A stretch of DNA of 64,000 bases from Bacteroidales bacterium (GCA_017620015.1 JAFZRE010000022.1:73173-137172); one strand, 5' to 3'. Counted from the first letter of the stretch, positions 56,628 to 62,179 are shown. Notes: generated by a model from the letters alone, not told the origin. Numbers and translations are program-made.

Positions 56628-56825
56628 ATTTGGCTTATTTTACAAGTGCAAATATATACATTTTTAACGAATACAGACTACATTTAGGAAAAACTTTACC
56701 TTTCATTATTTTGTTTCCTTATTCTTTCTCAAAGTTGCTCATCGCGCCAACATCTGCTCCAATAACAATTCACTAATTACCCAACCGTTGGATTGCCTCA
56801 TTATCTCATTTTCGCAAAACAAAAA

Positions 56826-57095
56826 ACCACTTATTCCGTTTTTGAGGAGGTGAATTTTACCACTTATTCCATTTTTGAGGGGAGGGAAAACGGATGCTGA
56901 AACCCGAAGGGGTCATCCCGAATTTAGTTCGGGATCAGCATGACAATGTAGAGAACATAACGGCAATAGATGCTGAAATAAATTCAGCATGACAGTTGGG
57001 GACAGGATGACATGGGAGAAGAAAAGAGGCATTACGTTAAAAGATCCTGAAACGAGTTCAGGATGACTGTTGGGTACAGCATGACAATTCGGGAG
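56826..57095. repeat. intergenic repeat cluster: 33-nt-period direct repeat followed by four GATGCTGAA/TTCAGCATGACA-type hairpins
   Basis: accacttattccgtttttgaggagg is at 56826 and accacttattccatttttgaggggagg at 56859. Hairpins are gatgctgaaacccgaagg..ttcgggatcagcatgaca, gatgctgaaataaattcagcatgaca (56968-56993) and gatcctgaaacgagttcaggatgac (57043-57067). Confidence 0.75.
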
Positions 57096-57103
57096 CAGGC
57101 TTG

Positions 57104-57643
57104 CTATTCCTCCACGGTAATGTTCTCGGCAATCAAGTCCTTAAGGTTGTTGATGATGTTTACATCGTTGAGGTTCATGCCTTCGAATACTTCCTTCACA
57201 TCGGCGGTGCTAAGCTCGAAATAGTCGTCGTCGGTGGTGTACTTGATGATGAAGTTGATGTCCTGGTACTGGCAGATGAAGTTGCTGAAGCATCCTGCAA
57301 GGTCGCCCTTGGGCTGCAGATCGATGTGCGAACGCTGATAGTCGGCATAGATTTCGGTGCCCTTGCCAACCTCCGACTTCAGGTAGAACTTGCCGTTGCA
57401 CAGCTCGGAATGGAATTTCAGCAGGGCTATGCCCATACCAATCTTGCGTTCGGGACGCGACGAATAGAACGTTTCGTTGATGGCATCCATCATTTCCTTG
57501 GGCATTCCGCAGCCGTTGTCGATAATCTTGAGCGACAGCAAGTCCTGTTTTGCGCTGTCAACCATTTCAATCACAATCTCCGTAGCCTTTGCCCTGATAG
57601 AGTTGTGAACTATGTCAATTATATGTAAATCAAGAGTTTTCAT
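57104..57643 (-). CDS. histidine-kinase-like ATPase (GHKL) domain protein
   Basis: N box HIIDIVHNSIRA and G boxes IIDNGCGMP and GMGIALL are present. It is the last gene of the cluster. Confidence 0.7.
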   Translation of the reverse strand: MKTLDLHIIDIVHNSIRAKATEIVIEMVDSAKQDLLSLKIIDNGCGMPKEMMDAINETFYSSRPERKIGMGIALLKFHSELCNGKFYLKSEVGKGTEIYADYQRSHIDLQPKGDLAGCFSNFICQYQDINFIIKYTTDDDYFELSTADVKEVFEGMNLNDVNIINNLKDLIAENITVEE

Positions 57644-58368
57644 AATATTATCTGTTCTCCTGTGTGAAGTGCATTTTTAAGGTTGTCGAAACTGAAACTG
57701 TCCATCTCGAGTACACTCGAAATCTTGCCGATGTCGTCGATGTAGTGTGCATCGGAACTCTGTATGTAATTGTAGTCGCTAAACCAGGGAAATTTGTCGA
57801 AAAAGTTGTTCTTCATAGCATAGTAGCTAAGTTCAAGTGCTTGAAACTTAAGCTTATCGGGAACAAACACCAGTTGCGAACTTATGCTGAATGTGCTGCG
57901 GTCAACGTGTGCTGGGATGAAGATTCCGCCCATCTCATAGACTTTCTTCTGCAAATCGAGCATAGGCAAATCAAGGGCATTTATCAATAGATGTGGAACT
58001 TCGTCGAGCACATTTTCCTCCTCGTCAACCACAAACTGGTAGCCGAACTTGTCGGGGTCGTTCTCGAAGAAAATGACCTTAGAATCAAGGAATTTCTGGA
58101 ATTCGGCAAGCTTTTCGGCGTTGGGCATAAATCCCAGGCAATGGATTTCCTCCTTAGTTGTGACTTCGGCACCCATCATCACGGCTATGCCGTTCTGCTC
58201 CCCTATTTTGCGTGTGACTTCGGCATTGAGAGTGCTGTTGTGGTCGGTAAGACCGATAATGTCGAGCCCCTTCTCCTTGGCCTTTGCGATTATGGCAGAC
58301 GGACTCATCTCTATGTCGCCACAAGGTGACAACACAGAATGCATGTGTAGGTCTGCGCGGAATTTCAT
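57640..58368 (-). CDS. PHP (polymerase/histidinol phosphatase) domain protein
   Basis: MKFRADLHMHSVLSPCG and GLTDHNS are present. It has a 4-nt overlap with the downstream ATPase gene. Confidence 0.8.
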   Translation of the reverse strand: MKFRADLHMHSVLSPCGDIEMSPSAIIAKAKEKGLDIIGLTDHNSTLNAEVTRKIGEQNGIAVMMGAEVTTKEEIHCLGFMPNAEKLAEFQKFLDSKVIFFENDPDKFGYQFVVDEEENVLDEVPHLLINALDLPMLDLQKKVYEMGGIFIPAHVDRSTFSISSQLVFVPDKLKFQALELSYYAMKNNFFDKFPWFSDYNYIQSSDAHYIDDIGKISSVLEMDSFSFDNLKNALHTGEQIIL

Positions 58369-58383
58369 GACTGGAAAGCCTTG

Positions 58384-58713
58384 TTACTTAATGAGTTCGT
58401 ATAATTTGCCGCAAAGCATGAATGTTGGTTCCGAACTTGAGAGCACAGCCACATCGTTGTCCTTTGCAAATTCGAGCATATCGTCGTCGGGAACACCGTT
58501 GCGAACGATGATAATTGCAGGAACATCCTTCAGCGCGGCAATCGAAGCCACGTTCTTATGAGTCTGCATGGTTATCCATACCTGACCGCTTTTTGCGTTG
58601 CCCATTACGTCGCTGAGCAAATCGGATGAATATGCGCTCTTTACATCAGCGTCCATGTTTACCTCGTTGTAAACCTTGAGGTTCAGTTTTTCTATAATGT
58701 CTTTCAGTATCAT
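58384..58713 (-). CDS. DRTGG domain protein
   Basis: 109 aa. SSDLLSDVMGNAK...VWITMQTH.N..A.A......IIIV.G is the DRTGG pattern. It is a paralog of 60936..61277. Confidence 0.7.
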   Translation of the reverse strand: MILKDIIEKLNLKVYNEVNMDADVKSAYSSDLLSDVMGNAKSGQVWITMQTHKNVASIAALKDVPAIIIVRNGVPDDDMLEFAKDNDVAVLSSSEPTFMLCGKLYELIK

Positions 58714-58784
58714 ATCGTTTAATTATTTTTTATTCTTTAATTTTTATAATTTAGGAGACGTTGCTCGCAACGTCTCTACAATTG

Positions 58785-58866
58785 AATCGTTAAATCGTCA
58801 AATTTTCAAATCAATCAAATCTTCAAATCGTTAAATCATTGAACCTTGAACTTTAAACCTTGAACA
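58785..58866. repeat. 8-nt-period degenerate tandem repeat (AAATCnnn x7, then TTGAAC words)
   Basis: Sequence gaatcgtt aaatcgtc aaattttc aaatcaat caaatctt caaatcgtt aaatcatt gaaccttgaactttaaaccttgaaca. It is preceded by the perfect 10-bp hairpin gagacgttgc-tc-gcaacgtctc (58755-58776). Confidence 0.8.
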
Positions 58867-58867
58867 T

Positions 58868-60205
58868 TTATAACGTCTTCAGATCTTCTCCCCAGATATC
58901 GAACATCACCTTGTAGAACTCGTCCATCTTCTTGTGTGCGAAAATGCAGTTTTCTATTTTGCTTTCGTTGCGGATAACATCCTCTGCCAAAGCATTGCAA
59001 GTAGGTGCGCCACAAGCTGAGCAGTCGATTCCTGGCAACATTCCTTCGATGCGCTTCATGTTTTCGACCATGCGGAAGGCTATCTGCAGGTTGTCGTTGA
59101 GCTTGAGGATGGAACGAGGCTTTATTTCGTCAACCTTTACCATTTCGGCAATCTTTTCGGCGAATTCCTTGTTGTTGAAGGCAACTTTCTGGTCGGACTC
59201 TTCCTTTTTCGGCTTGCTGTCAATAATTTCGGCACGTGCTTTCAGTTTTTGCTTTGCCACAAATCTGTTTGTTGGGCAGAGAACACCGCCTACGCAACTT
59301 TGGTCGCAGGCTCGCATTTCAACCAAGCCGTTTGCACTAATATCTTCGTCTTCAACCTTTTCCAAAAATTCGATAGCATTTCGTATTCCATCGACGGCAA
59401 AACATGAGTTGTTGAAGTTGCGCGATTCTCCAGTGGTAAGACCCCAGAGGACATCCTTTCCCGTAAGGCTATGATTTATAGGTTCTGCAATCGACTTTGA
59501 ACCGCTGAGCATAAGTTTTACCTTATTATATAGGAAGTCCATATTGATGACGCCCGTAATGAAAGATTTCTTTCCTTCGGCAGGACTTTTCACAGCAGCA
59601 ATCTTTGCAGCACAAGGAGACACATAGAAAATTCCAATGTCCTCGCTTGGAATACCAGCTTCTACCAGCCGCTGGCGGATAACTATCGAGGCGATGTCCA
59701 AAGGTGCGCTAAGGTGTATGATGTTGTGCACCAGCGATGGGAACCGAACCTGTATAAGTCGCACTATAGCAGGGCAATACGGCGATATGAAAGTGTCAAT
59801 TTCATCGTGCTCGGCCATGTACTGCTTGTACAGTTCAATGAGGAACGATACGGCGTGCTCGACTTCGTAAGTGTGGGTGAAGCCGATTTTCTTGAGGCAG
59901 GCATAAATCTGCGAGGTCTTTACATCGTTTGGAAACTGTCCGATGAATGTCGCAGGAACCAGAGCGATGCGATACTTGTAGTCGTCGAGCAGCTCGAAGT
60001 CGTCCTGCTTGATGTAGATTGCGTGAATGGGGCAAGCCTTGAAGCATTCGCCGCAGTCGATACATTTGTTGTTGTATATCACGGCCTTGCCTTTCCTAAT
60101 CCTTATTGCTTCGGTAGGACACGACCTAAGGCAGTGCGTACATCCGGTGCACGTATTGCGGTCGACGCGAAGCGCGTGGTAGAAGTATGATCCGTTTTCA
60201 CTCAT
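58868..60205 (-). CDS. [FeFe]-hydrogenase-large-subunit-like protein with two N-terminal 4Fe-4S ferredoxin motifs and a C-terminal CxxCxxxxC Fe-S motif (sensory/regulatory type, not a canonical HydA)
   Basis: The ferredoxin motifs are CTGCTHCLRSCP and CIDCGECFKACP. The H-cluster-like motifs are diverged: SPYCPAIV, VSPCAAKIAAV, VEMRACDQSCVGG. The C-terminus has IDCSACGAPTCNALAEDV. Confidence 0.75.
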   Translation of the reverse strand: MSENGSYFYHALRVDRNTCTGCTHCLRSCPTEAIRIRKGKAVIYNNKCIDCGECFKACPIHAIYIKQDDFELLDDYKYRIALVPATFIGQFPNDVKTSQIYACLKKIGFTHTYEVEHAVSFLIELYKQYMAEHDEIDTFISPYCPAIVRLIQVRFPSLVHNIIHLSAPLDIASIVIRQRLVEAGIPSEDIGIFYVSPCAAKIAAVKSPAEGKKSFITGVINMDFLYNKVKLMLSGSKSIAEPINHSLTGKDVLWGLTTGESRNFNNSCFAVDGIRNAIEFLEKVEDEDISANGLVEMRACDQSCVGGVLCPTNRFVAKQKLKARAEIIDSKPKKEESDQKVAFNNKEFAEKIAEMVKVDEIKPRSILKLNDNLQIAFRMVENMKRIEGMLPGIDCSACGAPTCNALAEDVIRNESKIENCIFAHKKMDEFYKVMFDIWGEDLKTL

Positions 60206-60224
60206 AGGCCAAAGTTTTTTTCAA

Positions 60225-60429
60225 GTTTCTAAGTTTAACTTCGTTGAGGGCTTCGCCGTTCTATGGCTGCGCCGTTTCTAAGTTTCAAGTTTCTTGGGCT
60301 ACGCCCGTTTCAATGTTTAACTTCGTTGAGGGCTACTTGTGCTGAGCGCAGTCGAAGTACGCCGTTCACGTTTCTGTGGCTACGCCGTTTCTATGTTTCA
60401 CGTTTCTAAGTTTCAGGTTTCTGGGTTTC
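60225..60429. repeat. array of 13 GTTTC pentamers (GAAAC on the transcribed strand) with 7-8-nt phasing, embedded in an 82-nt degenerate duplication
   Basis: GTTTC starts at 60225, 60274, 60282, 60289, 60307, 60370, 60387, 60395, 60402, 60410, 60417 and 60425. The 20-mer gtttaacttcgttgagggct occurs at 60233 and 60315. Confidence 0.85.
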
Positions 60430-60516
60430 TTTGTTTTTTAGGACAACATAGTCGTCACAATTTGTGATGACATATTATTATTCATATCAGCGTAGCTAAT
60501 TGTCCATTGTTAATTG

Positions 60517-60933
60517 TTAATTCTTCAAGAAAACCGTCATTGTTATTGTTGTGCCGACGCCCAATTCCGTCTGTATGTCGAGCTTGTCGGTGTTCTTCTT
60601 CATGTTTGGAAGTCCCATGCCAGCTCCGAATCCCATTTCCCTAACTTTCTGAGAGGCTGTTGAGTAGCCTTCGGTCATTGCAAGTTCGATGTTGGGGATG
60701 CCCGGTCCCTGGTCGGCGACGACCATCACAATCTTGTCGCCATCGATGTCGATGTCGATTTTTCCACCGTAAGCGTGGGCAACTGCATTGATTTCGGCTT
60801 CGTAAAGAGCTACCACTATGCGCTTGATGCTCGCAGGGTCAACATTGAGCTGCTTCAAGGTCTTCTTTACGCTACCCGAGGCATTGCCGGCATTGGTGAA
60901 ATTGCCTTTTTCTATGTCAAAAGTGTAGTGCAT
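60517..60933 (-). CDS. anti-sigma-factor-type serine kinase-like GHKL ATPase (RsbW/SpoIIAB-like)
   Basis: 138 aa. ALYEAEINAVAHAY (N box), VVADQGPGIP and GFGAGMGLPNMKK (G boxes) are present. Confidence 0.75.
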   Translation of the reverse strand: MHYTFDIEKGNFTNAGNASGSVKKTLKQLNVDPASIKRIVVALYEAEINAVAHAYGGKIDIDIDGDKIVMVVADQGPGIPNIELAMTEGYSTASQKVREMGFGAGMGLPNMKKNTDKLDIQTELGVGTTITMTVFLKN

Positions 60934-60935
60934 AA

Positions 60936-61277
60936 TTAATACATTGGTTTAATGCCGTGAGTGTAAAGTATTCCGCTGGTCTTGAAAATACTGTACTCGG
61001 TCTCGATTATTGTAATGTCGTTGTCAACCGCATGTTCAACCATCTCTTCGTCTGCTTTCTTTCCGCGTGCGAGGATTATTGTGTTTATCATCGCCATTTC
61101 GGCTGTGCGGACGGTCTGTATGTTGCACAAGCCTGTGATTAGCAGCGAACATTCGCCTCCAAGGCGCAAAACATCACTCATTAGGTCTGACGAAAATGCG
61201 TTTGTCAGTTCTTCGTTGTTATCCTGGCAGCCAACTATTCTGCCGTTAAGCAATTCTGCTATTTCTTTTGCTTTCAT
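60936..61277 (-). CDS. DRTGG domain protein (first gene of the cluster)
   Basis: 113 aa with SSDLMSDVLRLGG..SLLITGL.N.Q..RTAEM......IILARG. The -7 box TACATTTG lies at 61297-61304. Confidence 0.7.
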   Translation of the reverse strand: MKAKEIAELLNGRIVGCQDNNEELTNAFSSDLMSDVLRLGGECSLLITGLCNIQTVRTAEMAMINTIILARGKKADEEMVEHAVDNDITIIETEYSIFKTSGILYTHGIKPMY

Positions 61278-61296
61278 TTCTTTTTATATTGTTTCG

Positions 61297-61304
61297 CAAA
61301 TGTA
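61297..61304 (-). promoter_or_regulatory. -7 box TACATTTG for the DRTGG/hydrogenase-like cluster
   Basis: The plus strand reads caaatgta, 20 nt upstream of the ATG at 61277. Confidence 0.5.
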
Positions 61305-61362
61305 ATTCTTTTTATTTAATGTTGGTTCGATTCAGATTTGTTTTTTGACTCAATGGTTAAAA

Positions 61363-62100
61363 CTATTGCTTCACAAAGGTATAAGTAATCTTCCCTCCTT
61401 CAGCCTTATTTCCCGAAATCTTTGAGAACGAAGACTTTAATGCTGCTGTACGCGCTGCATTCGTCAAACATTCCACATCGGCGGTAAGATTTGAAGAAAC
61501 GACCTCGGCCGCAGAAACCTTTCCACTCGACGCAACCGAAATGCGCACCACCACTACCCCACTTCCCTCGCAGGTAAACACCGGCACATGCAGATACGAT
61601 GCTTCGCGCTGCTTGTTGTCGAGTTCGGCATATACCAAGGCTGGTCCAGACTTCACCATATTTCGCGGCTTGTTGTCGGACTGGTACTGCCCCATGCGCG
61701 ACTGGTCGATATAATCCTCGTAGGTACGGTTCTGCGCATCGTTATAGTCGTCGCCATACTTTTCGCGCAGGAATTGCTCCTCGTACCTAGCCTTCATGTC
61801 GGCTTCCGACATCGACTGCCCAGACGACGGCTGATAGGTGCGTGTTCCCGAATAATTCGATCCTGCAATGCCCAGATTCTGCAAGTACTGGTCAATCTGC
61901 TCATCGGTCATCATTTCGTCTTCTGCCTCCGACGACTGCGATTTGTCGTCCATCTCAAAATCCTGTGGATCAATTATGATATAACTTTCGGGATCCTTCT
62001 GTATCACACCTATCTTGCAGGCGAGACACACGCATATCACTATCAGATGGAACAATATTGTTCCAAGTATGCCATTGATATTTCTGCGAAAGAAAGACAC
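61363..62100 (-). CDS. TonB/TolA-like membrane-anchored protein with TonB C-terminal-type domain
   Basis: ORF 61363..62154. I prefer the GTG at 62098-62100 (VSFFRRNINGILGTILFHLIV...). The argS terminator (62143-62179) and a TACTTTTG box (62117-62124) both lie inside the longer ORF. The C-terminus VVVRISVASSGKVSAAEV...GKITYTF is TonB_C-like. Confidence 0.6.
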   Translation of the reverse strand: MSFFRRNINGILGTILFHLIVICVCLACKIGVIQKDPESYIIIDPQDFEMDDKSQSSEAEDEMMTDEQIDQYLQNLGIAGSNYSGTRTYQPSSGQSMSEADMKARYEEQFLREKYGDDYNDAQNRTYEDYIDQSRMGQYQSDNKPRNMVKSGPALVYAELDNKQREASYLHVPVFTCEGSGVVVVRISVASSGKVSAAEVVSSNLTADVECLTNAARTAALKSSFSKISGNKAEGGKITYTFVKQ

Positions 62101-62142
62101 TGCAAAAAGTTTTGCACAAAAGTAAATAAAATTCGTCGCACA

Positions 62143-62179
62143 CAAAAAAAACAATCCCCAATGTTTTTAATATTGGGGA
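62143..62179 (-). terminator. argS terminator
   Basis: The minus strand reads TCCCCAAT-ATTAAAAAC-ATTGGGGA followed by TTGTTTTTTTT. Confidence 0.7.

What the first reader, a model, noticed from the sequence alone, without database searches (positions are those of the whole stretch)
57104..61277. Orphan DRTGG / GHKL-ATPase / [FeFe]-hydrogenase-like / PHP cluster with no hydrogenase structural genes nearby
**Seen in the sequence**
- Six co-oriented genes run DRTGG (113 aa), RsbW-like ATPase (138 aa), hydrogenase-like Fe-S protein (445 aa), DRTGG (109 aa), PHP (242 aa) and GHKL ATPase (179 aa).
- The Fe-S protein has two ferredoxin motifs and diverged H-cluster motifs: SPYCPAIV instead of TSCCPxW, SPCAAKI for MPCxxK, and EMRACDQSCVGG for ExMACxxGCxxG. 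It also has a C-terminal CSACGAPTC motif.
- Downstream of the cluster lie only repeats and the HNH islet. Upstream lie a TonB-like gene and argS. There is no NuoE/NuoF/HydA-type gene in the window.

**Established knowledge (from memory of Thermotoga, Thermoanaerobacter and Clostridium loci)**
- This same set of small genes normally sits immediately next to the trimeric or tetrameric electron-bifurcating HydABC hydrogenase operon.
- It is assumed to be regulatory, but its mechanism has not been worked out.

**Inference**
- A stand-alone copy suggests an H2- or redox-sensing partner-switching module (kinase-like ATPases, a PHP phosphatase, DRTGG ligand-binding domains).
- It would control targets elsewhere, or something other than a hydrogenase.
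Basis: partly seen in the sequence, partly recalled or inferred. Interest (0 to 1): 0.6.

Follow-up and report, generated by a model that had tools for sequence, protein, structure and literature searches.

The report
Hydrogen-sensor gene module split from its hydrogenase
This is the six-gene regulatory module built around a putative hydrogen-sensing (group D) [FeFe]-hydrogenase that usually sits beside the HydABC hydrogenase genes; in this rumen Bacteroidales genus it has drifted away from them, which is fairly common in the order and does not make it a hydrogenase-independent system.

Summary
**Observation:** confirmed.

**Identity:** the 445-aa protein is a group D (M2e) putative sensory [FeFe]-hydrogenase. 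It has every cluster ligand, the Cx2Cx4Cx16C tail and Met353→Ser. It forms a 100/99-supported clade with the characterised TamHydS.

**Conservation:** the same six genes, in the same order, sit beside hydABC in other Bacteroidales and in Thermoanaerobacter, Caldanaerobacter and Thermoanaerobacterium.

**"Orphan" is overstated:**
- This genome carries hydD-like/hydB/hydA/hydC on another contig, plus hydE, hydF and hydG.
- Of 123 genomes of the order with the sensor, 121 have a group A HydA, against 150 of 278 without it.
- 79 are linked. At least 12, including three species of this genus, are clearly unlinked.

**Most likely function:** an H2-sensing switch acting in trans on HydABC. The signalling chemistry is unknown. 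The DRTGG proteins are not STAS-like, ATPase2 looks MutL-like, and no DNA-binding partner travels with the module.

**Verdict:** a new member of a known but mechanistically unsolved module. Moderate interest.

The parts
61297..61304 (-). Candidate Bacteroidota-type -7 promoter box (TACATTTG), 27 nt upstream of the DRTGG1 start codon
   Evidence: Pattern scan. A TAnnTTTG box at the same distance is present in 5 of 7 orthologous loci examined. It lies inside the ~70 bp of upstream DNA that stays with the module in the other species of the genus. This is a consensus match only; transcription was not tested.
60936..61277 (-). DRTGG1: 113-aa single-domain DRTGG protein
   Evidence: Pfam DRTGG E=4.8e-5. 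AF2 model pLDDT 93. Foldseek: AF1212 DRTGG TM 0.81, CBS-pyrophosphatase DRTGG TM 0.77, no STAS hit. Invariant SDLMSDVL and TGLxNxQ motifs. Stop codon 2 nt from the ATPase1 start.
60517..60933 (-). ATPase1: 138-aa SpoIIAB/RsbW-like GHKL ATPase. It is found immediately upstream of the sensor in every locus examined and is the best-conserved accessory gene.
   Evidence: HATPase_c_2 E=4e-14; TIGR01925 spIIAB 65 bits, below its cut-off. N-box yEAExN..H, G1 DxGPGI and G2 GfGAGMGLPN are conserved in 16 orthologues. 50-64% identical across the order and to Firmicutes. 100% identical in two other species of the genus despite ~88-92% nucleotide identity.
60206..60516 (-). 311-bp spacer made of GAAAC-rich dispersed repeats
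   Evidence: 94 blastn hits elsewhere in the genome. The spacer is only 131-144 bp in the two other species. It holds no TAnnTTTG box.
58868..60205 (-). HydS: 445-aa group D (M2e) putative sensory [FeFe]-hydrogenase
   Evidence: Domains. 34% identity and E~1e-52 to TamHydS. Motif alignment. All 16 cluster cysteines and Lys358 conserved in 119-120 of 120 homologues; position 299 Tyr/Phe, 353 Thr/Ser, 497 Arg. Clade with TamHydS supported 100/99.
58714..58867 (-). 154-bp spacer with 8-nt-period repeats and a conserved 9-bp hairpin (58755-58776)
   Evidence: The hairpin is the only element in the centroid fold; the whole-spacer z-score is -0.64, which is not significant. The hairpin sequence is conserved in all three species compared. 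No U-tract follows it. The repeat part has 36 genomic hits.
58384..58713 (-). DRTGG2: 109-aa DRTGG/HPr-kinase-N-like protein, first gene of the second sub-module
   Evidence: Hpr_kinase_N E=2e-6, DRTGG E=1e-3. 30% identical to DRTGG1. Conserved Y..DLLSxVM and WiTxQtHxN motifs.
57640..58368 (-). PHP-family metal-dependent phosphoesterase, 242 aa
   Evidence: PHP E=1e-9. Metal-ligand motifs HxH, DHN, E..H, AH and SDaH are conserved in 16 orthologues across two phyla.
57104..57643 (-). ATPase2: 179-aa GHKL ATPase with a ~75-aa C-terminal domain; overlaps the PHP gene by 4 nt
   Evidence: HATPase_c E=5e-13, HATPase_c_3 E=2e-7. N, G1 and G2 boxes conserved. AF2 pLDDT 88. Full-length Foldseek matches are MutL/PMS2/MLH1 N-terminal fragments and Topo VI-B (TMq ~0.5); histidine-kinase CA domains match only the first ~100 residues.

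Best explanation
**Identity (shown)**
- The cluster is the conserved accessory module of the electron-bifurcating HydABC [FeFe]-hydrogenase.
- It is built around a group D (M2e) putative H2-sensing hydrogenase, HydS.
- It consists of two sub-modules: [DRTGG1-ATPase1-HydS] and [DRTGG2-PHP-ATPase2].

**Location (shown)**
- In this genus, genome shuffling has separated the module from hydD-like/hydB/hydA/hydC.
- That operon lies on another contig and carries its own promoter-like boxes.
- HydA and HydS are the only H-domain proteins in the genome.

**Mechanism (inferred)**
1. HydS is matured by HydE, HydF and HydG and binds H2 at an H-cluster with a blocked classical proton path. It changes conformation rather than turning over quickly.
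2. The change is read by ATPase1, the SpoIIAB-like ATPase that is always encoded next to HydS. ATPase1 then binds or phosphorylates a partner; DRTGG1 is the best candidate.
3. DRTGG2, the PHP phosphoesterase and the MutL-like ATPase2 form a reset or second limb. This limb is dispensable in some lineages.
4. No DNA-binding protein ever travels with the module, and in Firmicutes its genes are interleaved with hydC and hydD. The output is therefore most likely exerted protein-to-protein, in trans, on the HydABC complex or on a remote regulator of it.
For: **Identity**
- Domains and motifs.
- Ligand conservation in 120 homologues.
- 34% identity to TamHydS.
- Clade with TamHydS supported 100/99, sister to the histidine-kinase-fused sensory hydrogenases.
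- Bacteroidales members are already in the published group D list.

**Module conservation**
- Same six genes in the same order beside hydBAC in Bacteroidales.
- In Thermoanaerobacterales the order is DRTGG1-ATPase1-HydS-DRTGG2-PHP-HydC-ATPase2-HydD-HydB-HydA.
- Sub-module structure.

**Functional tie to HydABC despite unlinking**
- 121/123 against 150/278 co-occurrence, p = 4e-23.
- 69 genomes show a fixed 5.2-6.7 kb spacing.
- The own genome has hydD-like/BAC on C22 and hydE, hydF and hydG.

**Purifying selection in the unlinked state**
- Proteins are 93-100% identical in three species, at 84-92% nucleotide identity.

**Catalytic motifs**
- Those of both ATPases and of PHP are intact.

**Promoters and neighbours**
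- Separate promoter-like boxes for the module and for hydD-like/BAC.
- No other gene family recurs beside the module in ten unlinked or loosely linked loci.

**Literature on TamHydS**
- High H2 affinity, low turnover and an H2-induced secondary-structure change (PMC8163306, PMC13104023).
Against:
- The sensory role of group D enzymes is itself only proposed. The latest work shows that the C-terminal cluster is not reduced by H2, so the signalling route is open.
- DRTGG1 has a plain DRTGG fold and no STAS likeness.
- ATPase2 resembles MutL-type clamps rather than protein kinases, at a TM of only ~0.5.
- No phospho-acceptor site is identified.
- 150 genomes have HydA without this module, so it is not essential for HydABC.
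- The promoter calls are consensus matches only.
Confidence: 0.6

Rival explanations
1. The module senses cellular redox state (the ferredoxin or NADH pool) through the Fe-S clusters of HydS rather than sensing H2. It tunes fermentation more broadly, with HydABC only one of its targets.
For: - HydS carries three accessory [4Fe-4S] clusters.
- In this genome hydBAC is flanked by aldehyde and alcohol dehydrogenase genes.
- The module is unlinked in a sizeable minority of genomes.
- The C-terminal cluster of TamHydS does not respond to H2.
Against: - All four H-cluster cysteines and Lys358 are conserved in 119-120 of 120 homologues. That would be unnecessary for a plain Fe-S redox sensor.
- TamHydS binds the [2Fe] subsite and reacts with H2.
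- The module occurs almost only in genomes with a group A HydA. The own genome also has the HydE, HydF and HydG maturases.
Confidence: 0.13
2. The six genes are not signalling proteins. They are assembly, activation or repair factors, or loosely bound extra subunits, of the HydABC(D) complex.
For: - The genes are interleaved with hydC and hydD in Thermoanaerobacterales.
- No DNA-binding output travels with the module.
- ATPase2 looks like a MutL-type ATP-driven clamp.
- The module co-occurs strictly with HydA.
Against: - 150 of 271 HydA-bearing genomes in the sample lack the module.
- The purified T. tengcongensis enzyme is reported as a HydABCD tetramer without these proteins (Soboh 2004, as cited in PMC6163223, and from my own knowledge).
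- TamHydS has sensor-like kinetics.
- The sister clade is fused to a bona fide histidine-kinase transmitter.
Confidence: 0.12
3. The stand-alone copy has been re-purposed to control something other than a hydrogenase.
For: - The module lies on a different contig from hydBAC in at least three species of the genus.
- It has promoter-like boxes of its own.
Against: - The proteins are orthologous and under purifying selection, with no change in the sensor's ligand set.
- Co-occurrence with HydA is 98% across the order.
- HydA is the only other H-domain protein in the genome.
- The new neighbours differ in each species, so no new functional linkage has formed.
Confidence: 0.07

Closest known systems
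TamHydS (Thermoanaerobacter mathranii group D / M2e putative sensory [FeFe]-hydrogenase) and its operon
   Same: - Same domain architecture: 2x[4Fe-4S], a short H-domain and Cx2Cx4Cx16C, with no PAS domain.
- Met353→Ser/Thr, and Cys299 absent.
- The alternative proton-path residues E252, D265 and E289, and the interdomain residues R30, R32, E392 and D393, are conserved.
- All six accessory genes are orthologous at 31-53% identity and in the same order.
   Different: - Here the module is on a different contig from hydBAC. In Thermoanaerobacterales hydC is interleaved and hydD-hydB-hydA follow directly.
- The Bacteroidales proteins have Tyr/Phe at position 299 (Ala in TamHydS) and Arg at 497 (Leu in TamHydS).
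- No AraC-type regulator is nearby.
Group C sensory [FeFe]-hydrogenases (T. maritima HydS with a PAS domain; the histidine-kinase-fused form found here in other Bacteroidales)
   Same: - Sister clade in the tree (99/98).
- Same N-terminal ferredoxin domain and same C-terminal four-Cys cluster.
- Encoded next to a HydB-HydA pair.
   Different: - Group C proteins carry their transmitter (PAS, or HisKA plus HATPase_c) in the same polypeptide.
- The window protein stops after the C-terminal cluster, and the GHKL ATPases are separate small proteins with no HisKA domain.
SpoIIAB-SpoIIAA / RsbW-RsbV partner-switching modules
   Same: - ATPase1 is a small SpoIIAB-like HATPase_c_2 protein with intact ATP-binding boxes.
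- It is encoded next to a small alpha/beta protein, and a phosphoesterase is in the same cluster.
   Different: - The small partner is a DRTGG protein, not a STAS protein.
- The phosphoesterase is PHP, not PP2C.
- No sigma factor is linked.
- The genome's one canonical STAS/HATPase_c_2 pair is elsewhere, on C40.
Regulatory [NiFe]-hydrogenase HoxBC-HoxJ-HoxA of Cupriavidus (from the literature and my own knowledge)
   Same: The logic is the same: a slow, high-affinity hydrogenase acts as an H2 sensor that controls a catalytic hydrogenase through a kinase-type partner.
   Different: - The metal site and protein family are unrelated.
- That system ends in a response regulator. No His-Asp components are present here.

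Membership tests
Group D (M2e) [FeFe]-hydrogenase | [quoted passage not shown] | tested here: met
   Fer4 family hits at residues 13-66. All 8 cysteines are conserved in 115-120 of 120 homologues and in TamHydS.
Group D (M2e) [FeFe]-hydrogenase | H-domain with the four H-cluster cysteines (C300, C355, C499, C503) and Lys358 | tested here: met
   Fe_hyd_lg_C 75 bits. Aligned against the genome's own HydA and TamHydS. Conserved in 119-120 of 120 homologues.
Group D (M2e) [FeFe]-hydrogenase | C-terminal Cx2Cx4Cx16C cluster motif with no PAS domain after it | tested here: met
   PF04060 at residues 390-422. C395, C398, C403 and C420 show exact spacing and are 120/120 conserved. The protein ends 25 residues later.
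Group D (M2e) [FeFe]-hydrogenase | Proton-relay Cys299 absent and Met353 replaced by Ser/Thr (PMC8163306) | tested here: met
   Tyr143 at position 299 (Tyr 93, Phe 27 among homologues). Ser196 at position 353 (Thr 114, Ser 5).
Group D (M2e) [FeFe]-hydrogenase | Phylogenetic grouping with a recognised group D enzyme, apart from groups A and C | tested here: met
   Clade of the window protein, 15 Bacteroidales orthologues and TamHydS supported 100/99. The reference set is small: one characterised group D sequence, rebuilt from an OCR-damaged supplement and validated at 99% against T. thermocopriae.
Group D (M2e) [FeFe]-hydrogenase | Incorporates the [2Fe] subcluster and reacts with H2 | not testable with these tools
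   Needs semi-synthetic maturation and FTIR/EPR. The HydE, HydF and HydG genes are present in the genome.
Group D (M2e) [FeFe]-hydrogenase | Typical, not defining, context: encoded in or next to a group A3 hydABC operon | tested here: not met
   hydBAC is on contig C22 and the module is on C20, more than 70 kb from either contig end. The same holds in 12 to about 42 of 123 genomes of the order.
SpoIIAB/RsbW-type partner-switching system | HATPase_c_2 serine kinase / anti-sigma protein | tested here: met
   ATPase1: PF13581 53 bits, over its cut-off. TIGR01925 65 bits, below its 135-bit cut-off. ATP-binding boxes are intact.
SpoIIAB/RsbW-type partner-switching system | STAS-domain antagonist with a phosphorylatable Ser | tested here: not met
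   No STAS gene in the cluster. The DRTGG1 model matches DRTGG structures only. The genome's small STAS gene lies next to another HATPase_c_2 gene on C40.
SpoIIAB/RsbW-type partner-switching system | PP2C (SpoIIE/RsbU) phosphatase and a target sigma factor | tested here: not met
   The phosphoesterase is of the PHP family. No sigma factor or other recurring neighbour appears in ten loci.
Two-component system (histidine kinase and response regulator) | HisKA phospho-acceptor domain and a receiver-domain partner | tested here: not met
   Neither ATPase has HisKA and the cluster has no receiver domain. The sister-clade sensor does have HisKA plus HATPase_c.

The most novel reading that the evidence does not exclude
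The module is a previously undescribed kind of H2-gated protein switch.
- The group D hydrogenase forms a complex with the SpoIIAB-like ATPase1.
- DRTGG proteins take the place of STAS antagonists.
- A PHP phosphoesterase and a MutL-like dimerising ATPase replace the PP2C limb.
- The output is post-translational control of the electron-bifurcating HydABC complex, not transcription.

The naturally unlinked Bacteroidales copies, with their Tyr/Phe299 and Arg497 pocket, would then be a clean system in which to dissect it.
Probability: 0.25. Interest if true: 0.7.

Novelty: new member of a known kind. Interest (0 to 1): 0.4.

Why it matters
**The open question**
- How putative sensory [FeFe]-hydrogenases pass on their signal is unknown.
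- The only characterised group D enzyme has been studied in isolation. Its authors state that its partners in the native host are unknown.

**What this window adds**
- It adds no new kind of system. Following it up does give a sharper parts list:
  - a six-gene module conserved across two phyla;
  - a minimal core of ATPase1 plus HydS;
  - a separable DRTGG2-PHP-ATPase2 limb;
  - no DNA-binding partner.
- The module keeps working when it is far from hydABC. That argues for trans-acting, probably protein-level, control.

**Wider relevance**
- HydABC is the only hydrogenase in this rumen bacterium.
- H2 feedback on fermentation in Bacteroidales bears on rumen and gut hydrogen and methane budgets.

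Tried and rejected
- **Sigma-70 promoter and terminator scan.** It was no better than shuffles (12 against 9.2 ± 2.9). I used the Bacteroidota TAnnTTTG box instead.
- **The module as a mobile cassette.** Synteny with two species of the genus ends exactly at the module's edges. The flanks, however, map to a patchwork of 1-3 kb blocks all over the window's genome. This is general gene-order shuffling, not specific mobility. No transposase or integrase recurs beside the module.
- **DRTGG as a STAS-like fold.** Rejected by Foldseek: only DRTGG, CBS-pyrophosphatase and HPr-kinase N-terminal matches.
- **ATPase2 as a plain kinase domain.** The full-length matches are MutL/PMS2/Topo VI-B.
- **Genomes with the sensor but no HydA.** There were two candidates.
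  - G225 is very fragmented (1180 contigs).
  - G187 has the module followed by hydD-like, hydB and hydC with hydA missing, plus a second sensor-type hydrogenase at a contig edge.
  - Neither is good evidence for a hydrogenase-free host.
- **Tying close homologues to published group D accessions.** The listing of cluster members returned only unnamed MAG proteins.
- **A second sub-module left behind with hydBAC in G115 and G026.** Not found.
- **Literature searches** for DRTGG plus hydrogenase plus PHP found no functional study.


Full report
**1. The observation**

Their domains are as described:
- DRTGG, 113 aa.
- A SpoIIAB-like HATPase_c_2 protein, 138 aa.
- A 445-aa protein with two ferredoxin-type [4Fe-4S] motifs, an iron-hydrogenase H-domain (PF02906, 75 bits) and a C-terminal PF04060 Fe-S motif.
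- A second DRTGG/HPr-kinase-N-like protein, 109 aa.
- A PHP phosphoesterase, 242 aa.
- A second GHKL ATPase, 179 aa.

The window has no HydA, NuoE or NuoF gene. The window is C20:73173-137172 of a 43-contig, 99.5%-complete genome. The cluster lies about 130 kb and 73 kb from the ends of that 208-kb contig. Missing neighbours therefore cannot be blamed on the assembly.

**2. "Orphan" means unlinked, not hydrogenase-less**

A whole-genome search finds exactly two H-domain genes: the 445-aa protein and a prototypical HydA on contig C22 (314 bits).

The C22 locus is a complete trimeric-type operon:
- a 129-aa ORF;
- HydB, 605 aa, of NuoF type;
- HydA, 588 aa, with the small-subunit domain;
- HydC, 157 aa, of NuoE type.

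The 129-aa ORF is the counterpart of the HydD subunit of the Firmicutes tetrameric enzymes. It is 37-41% identical to the ORF before hydB in Thermoanaerobacterales, and that ORF shows weak thioredoxin-like [2Fe-2S] similarity. The copy here has a single Cys.

HydF (466 bits), HydE and HydG are present on three further contigs.

**3. What the 445-aa protein is**

Its architecture and motifs match the M2e / group D class defined in the literature (PMC8163306):
- two N-terminal clusters and an H-domain;
- a C-terminal Cx2Cx4Cx16C motif with no PAS domain;
- Cys299 not conserved, and Met353 replaced by a hydroxyl residue.

*Comparison with TamHydS*
- I rebuilt the characterised TamHydS protein from the OCR-damaged coding sequence in the supplement of PMC13104023.
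- The result is 435 aa with C20, D378-C379 and D403-C404, as the paper states.
- It matches Thermoanaerobacter thermocopriae DNA at 99%.
- The window protein is 34% identical to it end to end (E about 1e-52). The genome's own HydA reaches 26% over part of its length.

*Conservation over 120 homologues*
- The four H-cluster cysteines, Lys358, the eight N-terminal cysteines and the four C-terminal cysteines are conserved in 115-120 of the 120 sequences.
- TamHydS's alternative proton-path residues E252, D265 and E289 are essentially invariant.
- Position 353 is Thr or Ser.

*Tree and published list*
- A maximum-likelihood tree puts the window protein, 15 Bacteroidales orthologues and TamHydS in one clade (100/99).
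- That clade is sister to a clade of ~660-aa proteins (99/98) and far from group A.
- The sister proteins are hydrogenase-FeS-HisKA-HATPase_c fusions, that is, sensor histidine kinases.
- The published list of 70 group D enzymes already contains Parabacteroides, Odoribacter, Proteiniphilum, Alkaliflexus, Anaerophaga and Marinilabilia. Bacteroidales membership of group D is therefore not new.

*What differs from TamHydS*
- Two fixed pocket differences appear in the Bacteroidales clade.
- An aromatic residue (Tyr 93, Phe 27) replaces Ala at position 299.
- Arg (118 of 120) replaces Leu at position 497.

**4. The six genes are one conserved module, normally beside hydABC**

- In Bacteroidales contigs whose sensor is 62% and 47% identical, the order is DRTGG1-ATPase1-HydS-DRTGG2-PHP-ATPase2-small ORF-HydB-HydA-HydC.
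- In a 55% relative, hydBAC precedes the six genes and hydF, hydG and hydE follow.
- In Thermoanaerobacter, Caldanaerobacter subterraneus and Thermoanaerobacterium saccharolyticum the order is DRTGG1-ATPase1-HydS-DRTGG2-PHP-HydC-ATPase2-HydD-HydB-HydA. Every accessory protein there is 31-53% identical to the window's.
- The same operon was described without functional comment in Halanaerobium hydrogeniformans (PMC4237134).

The module splits into two units:
- In G244 the unit DRTGG2-PHP-ATPase2 precedes DRTGG1-ATPase1-HydS.
- In G026 only DRTGG1-ATPase1-HydS is present near the sensor.
- In the complete genome G115 only ATPase1-HydS is present.
- The second unit is not beside hydBAC in either G026 or G115.

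ATPase1-HydS is thus the minimal core.

**5. How unusual is the unlinked state?**

In 401 genomes sampled evenly from the order, 123 carry a clear orthologue of the sensor (>330 bits). I located group A HydA in those genomes and across the whole sample.

| | HydA present | HydA absent |
|---|---|---|
| Sensor present (123) | 121 | 2 |
| Sensor absent (278) | 150 | 128 |

The odds ratio is 52 and Fisher p is 4e-23.

Distances between sensor and HydA:
- 79 genomes have a HydA within 12 kb. In 69 of them the orthologous HydA lies at a near-constant 5.2-6.7 kb.
- 9 have both genes on one contig but 30 kb to 2.8 Mb apart.
- 33 have them on different contigs.

Some of the 33 may be assembly breaks. 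For G000, G090 and G219 both loci are deep inside long contigs. An 83% relative has hydBAC 4 kb upstream of the module with four unrelated genes between them. A 66% relative has no hydABC within 10 kb.

The unlinked layout therefore occurs in at least 12, and perhaps up to about 42, of 123 genomes. It is shared by the four sampled species of the window's genus.

The two "no HydA" genomes are not convincing exceptions. One has 1180 contigs. The other (G187) has the module followed by hydD-like, hydB and hydC, with hydA missing between them.

**6. Why it is unlinked here**

- Nucleotide similarity to two other species of the genus covers only window ~57118-61346 (84-92%) and stops at the module's edges.
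- Their flanks map to a patchwork of 1-3 kb blocks on several contigs of the window's genome.
- Gene order in this genus is therefore shuffled in general. The 4.2-kb module is one of the blocks that survives intact.
- Its proteins are 93-100% identical across the three species, which indicates purifying selection.
- A Bacteroidota-type -7 box (TACATTTG) lies 27 nt upstream of DRTGG1, inside the conserved block. It recurs at that distance in 5 of 7 loci. None occurs in the two internal spacers.
- hydD-like/hydBAC has its own boxes in this genus and in a linked genome with a 510-bp spacer.
- Two independent transcription units would explain why separation is tolerated. This is pattern evidence only, because read data were not available.

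**7. The accessory proteins**

- *ATPase1.* It has the SpoIIAB-type N-box (yEAExN..H), G1 (DxGPGI) and G2 (GfGAGMGLPN) boxes. It is the best-conserved accessory protein.
- *ATPase2.* It keeps N, G1 and G2 boxes. Its AlphaFold model (pLDDT 88) matches MutL/PMS2/MLH1 N-terminal fragments and Topo VI-B over its whole length (TMq about 0.5). Histidine-kinase catalytic domains cover only the first ~100 residues. It may be an ATP-driven dimerising switch rather than a kinase.
- *PHP.* It keeps all the usual metal ligands.
- *DRTGG1.* The model (pLDDT 93) is a plain DRTGG fold: AF1212 TM 0.81, CBS-pyrophosphatase regulatory DRTGG TM 0.77, HPr kinase N-terminal domain TM 0.66. No STAS hit appears.
- *Shared motif.* Both DRTGG proteins have an invariant DL(M/L)S motif.
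- *STAS elsewhere.* The genome's one small STAS protein lies about 2 kb from another HATPase_c_2 gene on C40. The other STAS hit is in a 552-aa frame.
- *Neighbours.* No further gene family recurs next to the module in ten unlinked or loosely linked loci.

**8. Reading**

- *Identity* is secure. This is the group D sensory-hydrogenase module of HydABC.
- *Target.* It very probably serves the HydABC enzyme in trans. The grounds are 98% co-occurrence, HydA being the only other H-domain protein in the genome, and preservation under selection.
- *Signalling steps* are inferred. The proposed path is H2 at the H-cluster, a conformational change, ATPase1, DRTGG partner(s), and a PHP/ATPase2 limb that resets or modulates.
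- *Partner switching* is a useful analogy. The system fails the membership test for that family and for two-component systems.

**9. Verdict**

- The feature is a new member of a known, mechanistically unsolved module, in a layout that is a common minority state in its order.
- Its value is as a natural example that the module works at a distance, and as a source of testable partners for group D hydrogenases.

Noticed in passing
window 60206-60516, 58714-58867 and 56628-57103: The two internal spacers and the DNA downstream of the module are built from short dispersed repeats. They include GAAAC-rich units with GGCGNAGCC mini-hairpins, and they give 94, 36 and 52 blastn hits elsewhere in the genome. 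The ATPase1-HydS spacer is ~170 bp longer here than in two other species of the genus.
   Followed up: partly
window 58755-58776: A 9-bp GC-rich hairpin between HydS and DRTGG2 is conserved in all three species compared and is the only element in the centroid fold. No U-tract follows it. It may mark the boundary between the two sub-modules.
   Followed up: partly
L025-L028 (G089:C57, G151:C13, G116:C7, G106:C1): Many Bacteroidales carry a second, divergent hydB-hydA pair (38-49% identical to this genome's). It is followed directly by a ~660-aa hydrogenase-FeS-HisKA-HATPase_c fusion, a sensory hydrogenase fused to a histidine kinase. Each sensor type seems paired with its own hydrogenase.
   Followed up: partly
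L005 13225-13614 (G000:C22): The 129-aa ORF upstream of hydB is a HydD-like protein conserved from Firmicutes to Bacteroidales. The Bacteroidales copy keeps only one cysteine, so it probably no longer binds a [2Fe-2S] cluster.
   Followed up: partly
L005 14094-16899 (G000:C22): In this genome hydD-like/hydBAC lies immediately downstream of aldehyde dehydrogenase and iron-type alcohol dehydrogenase genes on the same strand. This may be a fermentation/redox-balancing neighbourhood.
   Followed up: no
L029 (G187:C160): One genome has the full module followed by hydD-like, hydB and hydC, with hydA missing between hydB and hydC. A 619-aa sensor-type hydrogenase without a kinase domain lies nearby, at the contig edge.
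   Followed up: partly
G000:C40:5245-8205: This is a separate canonical partner-switching locus: a HATPase_c_2 gene, a second weak GHKL hit in a 394-aa frame, and a 106-aa STAS gene. It is unrelated to the hydrogenase module.
   Followed up: no
window 61363-62154: The TTG start listed for the TonB-like ORF is probably too far upstream. A TAnnTTTG box (62124) lies inside the listed ORF, so the true start is likely a downstream codon.
   Followed up: no
L018, L019 against the G000 genome: Gene order within this genus is broken into 1-3 kb syntenic blocks scattered over different contigs. hydE, hydF, hydG, hydBAC and the sensor module all sit on different contigs.
   Followed up: partly
public records of homologues (P0085, P0163, P0175): Orthologues of the sensor are named 'RnfB' or 'RsxB electron transport complex subunit' or '4Fe-4S binding protein' in several source annotations. 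The DRTGG proteins are named 'predicted transcriptional regulator' or 'HPr serine kinase'. These are misleading labels for this module.
   Followed up: no
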